Shown piece after piece: positions 27,378-61,163 of a stretch of DNA of 64,000 nt. Source of the stretch: Eledone cirrhosa (taxonomy: Eukaryota); NCBI GenBank assembly GCA_964016885.1, contig OZ024740.1:216628001-216692000 (forward strand), in the 5' to 3' direction. The notes under the pieces were generated by a model. That model saw nothing but the letters and a program-made list of their open reading frames with translations, searched no databases and was not told the DNA's origin. Position 1 is the stretch's first letter; each line of letters starts with the position of its first letter. The translations under genes were made by a program, and so were the position numbers.

Positions 27378-27768
27378 TCATCATCATCATCACCGTTTTA
27401 CGTCCGATCTTCCACTCTAGCATGGGTTAGATGGGTTGTCCTGCTGTGGGCAATGTTAGGTCGGCTGACCTTGTCTTGCTCATATGGGAACTGATCTGGC
27501 TTGATTTCTACAGCTGGATGCCCTTCCTAACACCAACCTCATTTACAGTGAGTGCTGGGTGCTTTTTTTCCATGGCGCCTACACGTCCACTTTGCAGTGG
27601 AATGATAGGGACCCCAGTCCTATCATCTCATTTCTACAGCTGAGTAAACTGGAGCAATGTGAAATAAAGTGTCTTGCTCAAGGAAACAACACATCACCCT
27701 GTCCGAGAATTGAACTCACCACCTTTCGATTGCGAAGCCCAATGCTCTAACCACTAAGCCATGCGCCT
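27378..27768 (-). mobile_element. tRNA-derived SINE with long RTE tail
   Basis: Head GGCGCATGGCTTAGTGGTTAGAGC, core as in 34441-34761, tail matching 23990-24203. Confidence 0.9.
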
Positions 27769-27816
27769 ATATATATATACAAGACCCCTTATAATGGTAA
27801 TGATACCATTATAAGG

Positions 27817-27901
27817 GGTCTGACGAGCCGTGGATTACAGAGTCGGGCTAGATCGATACAGATCGAACCTTGAGCTGATCAGTGGTGAAATGCGCATCAC
27901 C
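27817..27901 (+). ncRNA. type I hammerhead ribozyme candidate with extended stem II (Penelope-like)
   Basis: GGT-CTGACGA(27820-27826)-[60-nt stem II]-GAAA(27887-27890)-TGCGCA-TC-ACC; stem I GGT/ACC; palindromic stem III; predicted cleavage after C27898; AATAAA at 27906. Confidence 0.7.
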
Positions 27902-28097
27902 AACCAATAAACATAATGGAGTAACCACTCGTCCTTCCTTTATTTTACTATATATATATATATATATATCATCATCACCGTTTTAGGTCTGTTCTTCCAC
28001 GCTACCATGGGTTAGATGGGCAGTGTCCGGTCGGCTGACCTTGTCTTTCTCATACGGGAACTGATTCTGGCTTATATATATATATAACTGATTCTGG

Positions 28098-28706: not shown

Positions 28707-28833
28707 GTGGGGTGTGTGGGAGCATATTGTATATAATATGCTTAAGCTTGTACCCATGGGAGGTCGGGTACTCTATATTACTGCGTGACGCCAGAGGTCA
28801 CGGTCATGTGTCATTACCTTTGAGAGGTGTAAT
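28703..28833 (-). mobile_element. inverted RTE 3' fragment
   Basis: Reverse complement of 29320-29447. Confidence 0.85.
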
Positions 28834-29319: not shown

Positions 29320-29873
<554 letters not shown>

Positions 29874-34440: not shown

Positions 34441-34761
34441 CATGGCTTAGTGGTTAGAGCATTGGTCTTGCAATCGAAAGGTTGTGAGTTCAATTCTCAG
34501 ACCGGGTGATGTGTTGTTTCCTTGAGCAAGACACTTTATTTCACATTGCTCCAGTTTACTCAGCTGTAGGAATGAGATGATAGGGACTGGGGTCCATATC
34601 ATTCCACTGCAAAGTGGTTGTGGAGGTGCCACGCAAAAAAGCACCCAGCACTCACTGTAAATGAGGTTGGTGTTAGGAAGGGCATCCGGCTGTAGAAATC
34701 AAGCCAGAATCAGTTCCAGTCCCACCCTTGCAAGCGGAGGTAAAATGAAATGATGATGATA
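34441..34761 (+). mobile_element. tRNA-derived SINE with RTE-derived tail, full length
   Basis: A box TGGCTTAGTGG, B box GTTCAATTC, core CCTTGAGCAAGACACTTTATTTCACATTGCTCCAG, tail CCACTGCAAAGTGG...GTTAGGAAGGGCATCC shared with the RTE LINE 3' UTR. Confidence 0.9.
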
Positions 34762-60463: not shown

Positions 60464-60577
60464 TATATATATATATATATATATATGTATGTAAAAGGTA
60501 AACAGAAATAACAACACAATCGGTACAGTATGTGGACGGTATATATTAGGTTAACGCTTGATATAGCAGGAAGAGGG

Positions 60578-60614
60578 TCTTAACGTTTCGGACGCTAGTC
60601 CTTCATCAGAAGAA
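60578..60614 (-). ncRNA. minimal type I hammerhead ribozyme (Penelope-like)
   Basis: Minus strand TTCTT-CTGATGA-A-GGAC-TAGC-GTCC-GAAA-CG-TT-AAGA: intact core, 4-bp stem II, palindromic AACGTT stem III, stem I TCTT/AAGA. Confidence 0.8.
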
Positions 60615-61163
60615 AGAATGAGAAATAGGCATATTGAAGGTACTAGGGTGGGAGTGAAAAATAGACGGTTGAAAAGAATGTAGTAGAGGAAAAGTGGTAG
60701 AGAGTCGTGTAATATTTAAATGCAAGAAGCAAAGAAAATTTCAAAGATACGAAAGATTTCATATATATATATACACACACACACAGATGTATAGATAGTC
60801 AGGTAAATAAAGAAGAATCTCTTTTACTATATATAATATAGAGAGAAAGAAAGAGGGGTGATCTATAGGGAGAGAGTGAGTGAGAGAATGATTTATAAAG
60901 AGAGAGAGTGAGTGAGAGAGAATGATTTATAAAGAGAGAGGGAGAGAGTGAATGATAGAGAGAAATATTTTTTAGATCATACAAGAGGAAAGAGAAAATG
61001 AAAGCAGAATAGCAAAAGAAAAATACAAATAAAATGGAAACCAAAAAGTAAATAAAATCTTTAGCTGAGTTAGAAGAAAAAGGATGTAAAGAAAGAATAC
61101 TGTAGGTTAACATTGTCGCCATTGGGGTATATAAGCTGGGAGGAAGCCACAAGAAATGATATA

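What the first reader, a model, noticed from the sequence alone, without database searches (positions are those of the whole stretch)
27781..27950. 170-bp mini-element: terminal hairpin + complete long-stem-II hammerhead + poly(A) signal
Between (TA)n tracts lies a perfect 18-bp hairpin (AGACCCCTTATAATGGTA / TACCATTATAAGGGGTCT) that overlaps stem I and the first core bases. Then come CTGACGA, a 60-nt stem II with apical TCGAT-ACAG-ATCGA, GAAA, palindromic TGCGCA, an AUC site and AATAAA. All catalytic core nucleotides are present. The hairpin competes with stem I, so it could act as an off-switch (inference).
Basis: partly seen in the sequence, partly recalled or inferred. Interest (0 to 1): 0.75.

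Follow-up and report, generated by a model that had tools for sequence, protein, structure and literature searches.

The report
Decaying hammerhead at Penelope retrotransposon ends
This 170-base piece is a broken-off end of a common animal jumping gene rather than an element of its own, and its hairpin is likely an insertion scar; the more interesting point is that the family kept spreading after its predicted self-cutting RNA picked up two mutations that likely cripple it.

Summary
All described motifs are present, but this is not a mini-element with a switch. It is a 5'-truncated copy of the terminal repeat (pLTR) of a 4.8-kb Hydra-clade Penelope-like retrotransposon; 1,650 exact motif matches occur in this genome. 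The pLTR carries a type I hammerhead with a palindromic (dimer-type) helix III and a long 60-nt stem II. The hairpin is the junction of the inverted 5' arm typical of these insertions; this junction is unique and would block folding permanently. The copy itself has CpG decay that disfavours the active fold.

Two family-level results go beyond the finding. (1) Copies end at two internal TA-like sites 100 nt apart, and head-to-head insertions pair one short with one long end (55 of 58 classifiable). (2) Younger subfamilies changed the catalytic core stepwise (U4C, then A6U) yet kept transposing; mutant-core exact matches outnumber canonical ones, 823 to 371. That bears on the open question whether these ribozymes need to cut. 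No cleavage or RNA data were obtained. This scan had noted long-armed Hydra hammerheads and two-armed insertions on other DNA; the core decay was not among the notes returned.

The parts
27768..27779 (.). (TA)n target microsatellite, left flank
   Evidence: family-wide (TA)n insertion
27782..27803 (-). Inverted 5' arm: 22-nt antisense copy of the element's own stem I 5' strand plus the first core bases; left arm and loop of the hairpin
   Evidence: 22 of 22 identical to the reverse complement of the subfamily majority; junction unique in genome
27804..27949 (+). 5'-truncated forward arm of the pLTR of a Hydra-clade Penelope-like element, subfamily A, ending at the 'short' start site
27804..27819 (+). 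Remnant of stem I 5' strand (proximal GGU 27817-27819); right arm of the hairpin
27820..27826 (+). Hammerhead core CUGACGA (C3-A9), canonical in this copy; CCGACGA and CCGUCGA in younger subfamilies
27827..27886 (+). Long stem II, 60 nt, predicted imperfect hairpin; closing pair G.U after CpG decay at 27886
   Evidence: no covariation above shuffles
27887..27898 (+). GAAA, 8-nt palindromic helix III (27890-27897) and predicted cleavage site after C27898
   Evidence: self-duplex -10.5 kcal/mol versus -13.3 for the family form
27899..27925 (+). Stem I 3' strand, with a G>A change at 27913 and a 3-bp deletion
27906..27911 (+). AATAAA, likely poly(A) signal of the parent element (inferred)
   Evidence: AATAAA/ATTAAA lies within 20 nt of the cut in 5 of 8 recurrent hammerhead families in the fetched loci; no RNA evidence
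27949..27970 (.). 'Short' 3' end and (TA)n right flank; in longer copies the element continues here through a TA-like motif into the 100-nt tail

Best explanation
The 170 bases are a truncated copy of the terminal repeat of a Hydra-clade Penelope-like retrotransposon inserted in a TA microsatellite, and the hairpin is likely a scar of the two-armed way these elements insert, not an evolved switch. Shown: the parent element (4.8 kb, RT plus GIY-YIG frame between two direct pLTRs), two fixed 3' ends about 100 nt apart, and head-to-head copies that pair one short with one long end. Inferred mechanism: the element's protein nicks both strands of (TA)n. Each nick primes reverse transcription inside the RNA at a TA-like motif, one at the short site and one at the long site. 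Most cDNAs run to near the RNA 5' end, and the two are joined head to head. Here the left arm survives as only 22 nt, through deletion or a very short second priming. The hammerhead is predicted to cut only as a dimer through its palindrome. This copy is likely dead or very slow: CpG decay weakens it, and the hairpin would trap stem I in any read-through RNA. At family level, cutting is likely dispensable: most cDNAs run through the cut site, and the younger lineage kept transposing with U4C plus A6U in the core.
For: Upstream extension into the coding region. Of 40 loci fetched around endonuclease-region matches, several show direct pLTRs on both sides of the frame (L107, L115, L116, L123) or the frame starting just after the tail (L102, L108, L138); unit length 4,791 and 4,856 bp. 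Hydra motifs DKT, RWR, CxCX5C, CxxC and CxH are in natural frame pieces, as defined in PMC8557442. Ends: 55 long+short, 3 short+short, 0 long+long, 10 unclassified among 68 distinct head-to-head pairs (p 2e-13 for 55 of 58); arms overlap in 51 of 55. (TA)n follows 45 of 49 long and 49 of 55 short ends (sample S2). 5' ends: 52 of 113 arms at profile positions 61-100, only 3 of 113 within 8 nt of the cut. Junction unique; only 3 loci have (TA)n abutting this arm. Core decay: 0 of 32 and 1 of 41 copies canonical in two clusters; 823 versus 371 exact matches; ladder-shaped tree of the endonuclease region with tip copies at 0.008-0.012. Literature: inverted 5' copies and tails in PLEs (PMC8557442); two internal RT starts and cleavage not needed in vitro (PMC11167929).
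Against: No RNA, cleavage or expression data. The long stem II rests on energy prediction alone: no covariation above shuffles (85-138 of 500 reach it), and RNAalifold does not return the hammerhead fold. The free minimum-energy fold differs from the hammerhead even for the family majority (by about 7.6 kcal/mol). One age test pointed the other way (mutant-core cluster more diverged, 0.054 versus 0.035, p 0.02); that cluster lumped two subfamilies, and after splitting only the last one is clearly younger at non-CpG sites (0.023 versus 0.038-0.047). The tree root was chosen, not tested with an outgroup, and 18 of 43 rows had no core label. A6U itself has no measured effect in the passages I read; A6C and U4C lower activity but can stay functional (PMC3088659, PMC7151607). 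Pfam did not recognise the frame pieces.
Confidence: 0.88

Rival explanations
1. The 170-bp unit is a non-autonomous mobile mini-element (retrozyme- or SINE-like) whose terminal hairpin is a regulated off-switch for the ribozyme.
For: The hairpin is perfect and adds about 7 kcal/mol against the hammerhead fold. A second (TA)n-hairpin-hammerhead-short-end copy exists (L202). Most family copies are short pLTR-only pieces.
Against: L202's hairpin is built from another subfamily's sequence with another junction, so it arose independently. The window's junction is unique. No trigger could open a -28 kcal/mol hairpin that forms first in transcription. Perfect arms are unsurprising at about 4-5% copy divergence (my estimate: about 1.6 mismatches expected over 36 nt). 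No tandem monomers as in retrozymes were seen in the fetched loci.
Confidence: 0.04
2. The C4/U6 core of the young subfamilies is still a working ribozyme (slow, protein-assisted or with altered metal preference), so cutting remains required in the family.
For: GAAA, helix III and the cut site are unchanged in all six subfamily majorities (0 of 12 columns vary), and stem I is remodelled at similar stability. U4C viroid variants stay infectious (PMC3088659); A6C cuts well in Mn2+ (PMC7151607); the anole PLE hammerhead cuts only with protein (PMC11167929).
Against: Two core changes accumulate in sequence with no known compensation. No substitute CUGAnGA lies within -600..+420 nt in three young loci; only isolated U3-A8-like heptamers. 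cDNA 5' ends do not pile up at the cut. 0 of 12 is not significant alone at the roughly 10-35% variation seen in neighbouring regions.
Confidence: 0.3
3. The short hairpin is the remnant of a once full-length inverted arm that was deleted after insertion (palindrome instability) rather than made short during insertion.
For: Internal deletions in inverted arms of L007, L020 and L024; the two bases CA left of the arm resemble the start of a long-end arm.
Against: Very short inverted arms also occur directly at start sites in other copies, so insertion alone can make them. The two routes cannot be separated for one copy.
Confidence: 0.45

Closest known systems
Hydra-clade C-terminal EN+ Penelope-like elements, e.g. 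Hydra-1_Obim (Craig et al. 2021, PMC8557442; passages and supplement parts read)
   Same: Single RT + GIY-YIG frame, DKT, CxCX5C linker, CxxC and CxH around the conserved E/N, (TA)n targeting, hammerhead in the pLTR, inverted 5' copies, tail at one end.
   Different: Not one of the listed families (four motifs absent from the supplement text). Unit 4.8 kb versus generally under 3 kb; RWR for RWK. Stem II spans 60 nt versus 3-7 bp with 3-10-nt loops in the Hydra rows of File S2; similarly long stem II appears there only in the spike-moss PLE-X families. Tail about 100 nt versus 30-40. Young subfamilies lack a canonical core, whereas the paper calls canonical hammerheads universal in Hydra.
PLE hammerheads with palindromic helix III (Cervera and de la Pena 2014, PMC4209133; parts 1-2 of 4 read)
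   Same: Type I, short palindromic helix III, predicted dimer, G10.1-C11.1, mostly single truncated motifs, some in opposite-strand pairs 100-700 bp apart.
   Different: Much longer stem II; 8-nt palindrome; no extra base between A9 and 10.1; lineage-wide U4C and A6U.
PAc, Poseidon element of the green anole (Frangieh et al. 2024, PMC11167929; parts 1-2 of 4 read)
   Same: Two internal RT start sites define the tail; both DNA strands cut and extended; uncleaved RNA is the template.
   Different: Here the sites are about 100 nt apart and lie in the pLTR/5' UTR before the start codon. Both carry a TA-like motif matching the target, whereas PAc starts at a site not homologous to the cut DNA. The genomic copies show strict short+long pairing.
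Animal retrozymes (PMC7229834; search listing and abstract start only)
   Same: Short non-coding pieces with a type I hammerhead.
   Different: This piece belongs to a protein-coding element and is not a tandem monomer.

Membership tests
Penelope-like element (EN+) | Single frame with RT followed by GIY-YIG endonuclease | tested here: met
   Natural frame pieces with YRDD and YIGAT motifs in linked copies; homologues of about 700 aa. Pfam gave no hit on the pieces and a sub-threshold RVT_1 hit on 1 of 10 homologues.
Penelope-like element (EN+) | Direct pLTRs, inverted 5'-truncated copy, tail at one end | tested here: met
Hydra clade | DKT motif and CxCX5C linker; CxxC and CxH beside conserved E and N | tested here: met
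   Read in L108, L138, L118, L123, L125 translations against the definition
Hydra clade | N-terminal RWK motif | tested here: inconclusive
   RWR in L108 and L138: a conservative change
Hydra clade | (TA)n insertion preference | tested here: met
   94 of 104 short or long ends followed by (TA)n in sample S2
Hydra clade | Phylogenetic placement with published Hydra proteins | not tested
   Only a by-eye match to the supplement alignment; two homologues come from Apostichopus japonicus, a listed Hydra host
Hydra clade | Generally under 3 kb | tested here: not met
   4,791 and 4,856 bp between direct pLTRs; a typical rather than defining trait
Neptune clade | CX2-5CxxC linker, DKG motif, CCHH in the endonuclease | tested here: not met
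   Linker is CxCX5C and motif is DKT
Type I hammerhead ribozyme | Core CUGAnGA / GAAA / NUH | tested here: met
   Window copy; not met in young subfamilies
Type I hammerhead ribozyme | Helices I-III around the core with covariation | tested here: inconclusive
   96% of cells paired but no excess over shuffles; RNAalifold prefers another fold; no Rfam match
Type I hammerhead ribozyme | Self-cleavage after C17 | not testable with these tools
   No RNA run listed
Retrozyme / independent mini-element | Unit replicated with the same ends, no coding parent | tested here: not met
   Left junction unique; coding parent found

The most novel reading that the evidence does not exclude
In this lineage the hammerhead has turned from a cutter into a non-catalytic RNA-pairing device. 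The invariant palindromic helix III joins two element RNAs so that one protein dimer can prime both target strands, one at the short and one at the long TA-like site. This would explain the strict short+long pairing, the overlap of the two arms, and why U4 and A6 could be lost while the palindrome and stems were kept.
Probability: 0.2. Interest if true: 0.8.

Novelty: new variant of a known kind. Interest (0 to 1): 0.42.

Why it matters
The locus itself is an ordinary dead retroelement fragment. The family matters more. Why Penelope-like elements carry hammerheads is stated as unresolved (PMC8557442: function unclear, possibly parasitic). Here one lineage provides a natural series, canonical to U4C to U4C+A6U, with continued amplification, so the need for cutting can be tested directly with natural sequences. 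The strict pairing of the two start sites also gives genomic constraints on the poorly known insertion mechanism.

Tried and rejected
Rfam: no hammerhead match at gathering or E up to 10. The loose GAAA pattern in the window was uninformative. PDB sequence search gave nothing. No RNA holder listed, so expression was not examined; run X1 (contigs of unrecorded kind) only showed that the window's T27886, T27891 and A27896 are minority states. Neptune clade was my first reading and was rejected on the linker and DKT motifs. A pile-up of cDNA 5' ends at the cut was sought and not found: 3 of 113 arms; 9 loci with (TA)n within 8 nt of the cut, 3 exactly at it. The TGCGCA 'double change' from CGCGCG was rejected as covariation because both changes are CpG-type transitions. 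A hot spot for short arms ending at AGACCCC cannot be claimed, because the pattern forced that end. The age comparison was confounded by lumped subfamilies and repeated. A replacement core near the young pLTR was not found. An intron in stem II or the tail was considered and not tested. Lunse et al. on small PLE hammerhead variants could not be read and may already describe core variants or long stems; Repbase families were not available. Literature searches that returned no description of core loss in an active PLE lineage; of short+long pairing. Only the supplement of PMC8557442 was opened, in part; unseen supplements of PMC4209133 and PMC11167929 may bear on novelty.

Full report
OBSERVATION. 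Every motif is at the stated place: an 18-bp hairpin (27782-27821), CTGACGA (27820-27826), a 60-nt stem II region, GAAA, the palindrome ATGCGCAT, C27898 and AATAAA (27906-27911), between (TA)n tracts. The hairpin is strong (-28.4 kcal/mol; z -6.05). The hammerhead region alone folds no better than shuffles and has no Rfam match.

IT IS A REPEAT END. The 170 bases found 2,897 first-look candidates in the 3.0-Gb own genome, of which 40 were scored. Exact patterns give 791 and 1,650 matches with 0 for reversed controls. Two of the first 30 loci extend upstream; one leads through a long 3' UTR into an endonuclease-like frame. Among 40 loci fetched around that region, several have direct repeats on both sides of the frame, or the frame starting just after a 100-nt 'tail' that follows the repeat. 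Two young full-length units measure 4,791 and 4,856 bp. The frame pieces show DKT, RWR, YRDD, a CxCX5C linker, YIGAT, CxxC and CxH, which match the Hydra clade of Penelope-like elements as defined in PMC8557442 (passages; by-eye match to its supplement alignment). I first read the element as Neptune; earlier scan notes pointed to Hydra and the motifs confirmed it. The host is probably a cephalopod (recalled resemblance of flanking repeats; not tested).

THE HAIRPIN IS AN INVERSION JUNCTION. The left arm with its loop (27782-27803) is 22 of 22 identical to the reverse complement of the element's own stem I strand. Inverted 5' copies are a known PLE trait. In other copies the inverted arm spans about 20 nt to the full repeat, with a different junction each time. 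The window's junction occurs once. A looser pattern finds 3 loci; one, L202, has a similar hairpin made from another subfamily's sequence. The hairpin raises the cost of the hammerhead fold from 13.7 to 20.8 kcal/mol; the subfamily majority pays 7.6. It is therefore a permanent block on an already damaged copy (four CpG-type transitions, a 3-bp deletion and a two-base change), not a switch.

HOW THE COPIES ARE MADE. Copies end at a short site or at a long site about 100 nt further on. In sample S1 (87 of 90 loci from the core pattern; 3 overlapping dropped) 31 of 36 head-to-head pairs are long+short; in S2 (68 of 70 loci from the downstream pattern; 2 dropped) 29 of 37. The samples overlap; the union has 68 pairs: 55 long+short, 3 short+short, 0 long+long, 10 unclassified, and the arms cover the same element positions in 51 of 55. 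Where the element reads through these sites it carries a TA-like motif. Overlapping arms need two passes over template, from two RNAs or one RNA used twice. This fits PMC11167929 (parts 1-2 of 4: both strands extended, two internal starts), except that pairing with the target looks possible here. 5' ends cluster just upstream of and within stem I (52 of 113 arms), which suggests the RNA starts there (inference; a TA-like microhomology there could also contribute). Only 3 of 113 lie near the cut, so templates were mostly uncleaved. The 170-bp size is thus the distance from the short site to near the RNA start.

THE RIBOZYME. It is type I with an 8-nt palindromic helix III, the dimer type of PMC4209133 (parts 1-2 of 4). 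A scan that did not require a palindrome found 8 recurrent hammerhead-like families in the fetched loci, with stem II of 13-60 nt; the commonest helix III is a perfect palindrome in 6 of 8, and AATAAA/ATTAAA follows the cut in 5 of 8. Published Hydra hammerheads have short stems II, so 60 nt is a variant. Against it: no covariation above shuffles in 28 distinct copies and a different RNAalifold consensus.

CORE DECAY IN THE YOUNGER LINEAGE. In 200 aligned copies the core splits into CTGACGA (80), CCGTCGA (37), CCGACGA (15) and CpG derivatives. Four clusters (191 of 200 copies) keep a full canonical core in 46 of 63, 40 of 55, 1 of 41 and 0 of 32. A tree of the endonuclease region, independent of the repeat, is a ladder: canonical, then U4C, then U4C+A6U. 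Median terminal branches are 0.045 (n=9), 0.042 (n=5) and 0.027 (n=10; p 0.03 against canonical), with the tip clade at 0.008-0.012; 18 of 43 rows were unlabelled and the root was chosen on an old-looking copy. By my sum of the printed branches the lineage evolved about 0.2 substitutions per site after the double change. Mutant-core exact matches number 823 against 371 canonical (young copies are favoured by exact matching). These copies have normal ends and flanks. A first divergence test pointed the other way because it lumped two subfamilies; after splitting, only the last is clearly younger at non-CpG sites. GAAA, the palindrome and the cut site are unchanged in all six subfamily majorities, and stem I is remodelled at similar predicted stability. 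U4C and A6C lower activity in other hammerheads (PMC3088659 and PMC7151607, passages); A6U did not occur in either text. The window copy belongs to the canonical, older subfamily A.

VERDICT. The locus is a dead, inverted-junction pLTR fragment of a Hydra-clade Penelope-like element: a new variant of a known kind. Interest comes from the family: a natural series of core loss during continued transposition, and strict pairing of the two start sites. Searches that did not return either were made; one key paper on PLE hammerhead variants could not be read. Also seen as passages only: PMC6765202, PMC2377424.

Noticed in passing
window 60560-60670, minus strand (C3 at 60609): A second, unrelated minimal hammerhead (13-nt stem II, CG loop III) from another repeat family; 7 distinct copies in the fetched sequence.
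   Followed up: partly
window 837, 4821, 5641, 13437, 40985, 47214, 50315: Seven copies of a SINE-like repeat ending in GAAACAATTAT just before AT-rich tracts; possibly the family that earlier scan notes describe as a rewired hammerhead; not checked.
   Followed up: no
L090, L118 (stem II 97 nt); L067 (50 nt); L002, L105 (36 nt); L012, L015 (26-27 nt): Other hammerhead families in this genome form a length series of stem II from 13 to 97 nt with different palindromes in helix III.
   Followed up: partly
L341-L369, youngest subfamily: The short start site has drifted towards a longer pure TA run in younger subfamilies, as expected if it pairs with the (TA)n target.
   Followed up: partly
window 28723-28833 and 29320-29427: An inverted pair of about 110 bp flanks a 270-bp repeat and a long (TA)n tract: another two-armed insertion of a different family.
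   Followed up: no
window 27703-27761 (-) and 34443-34500 (+): tRNA-like heads of SINEs; the hairpin copy sits in the (TA)n next to the first.
   Followed up: no
L330: A two-armed copy whose arms are separated by a nested insertion of another inverted-repeat element in (TA)n.
   Followed up: no
run X1, loose ends: Contigs of related families share the GAAACGCGCGTCAC block but differ around it, one with a U4C-type core, hinting that the palindrome block is conserved more widely.
   Followed up: no
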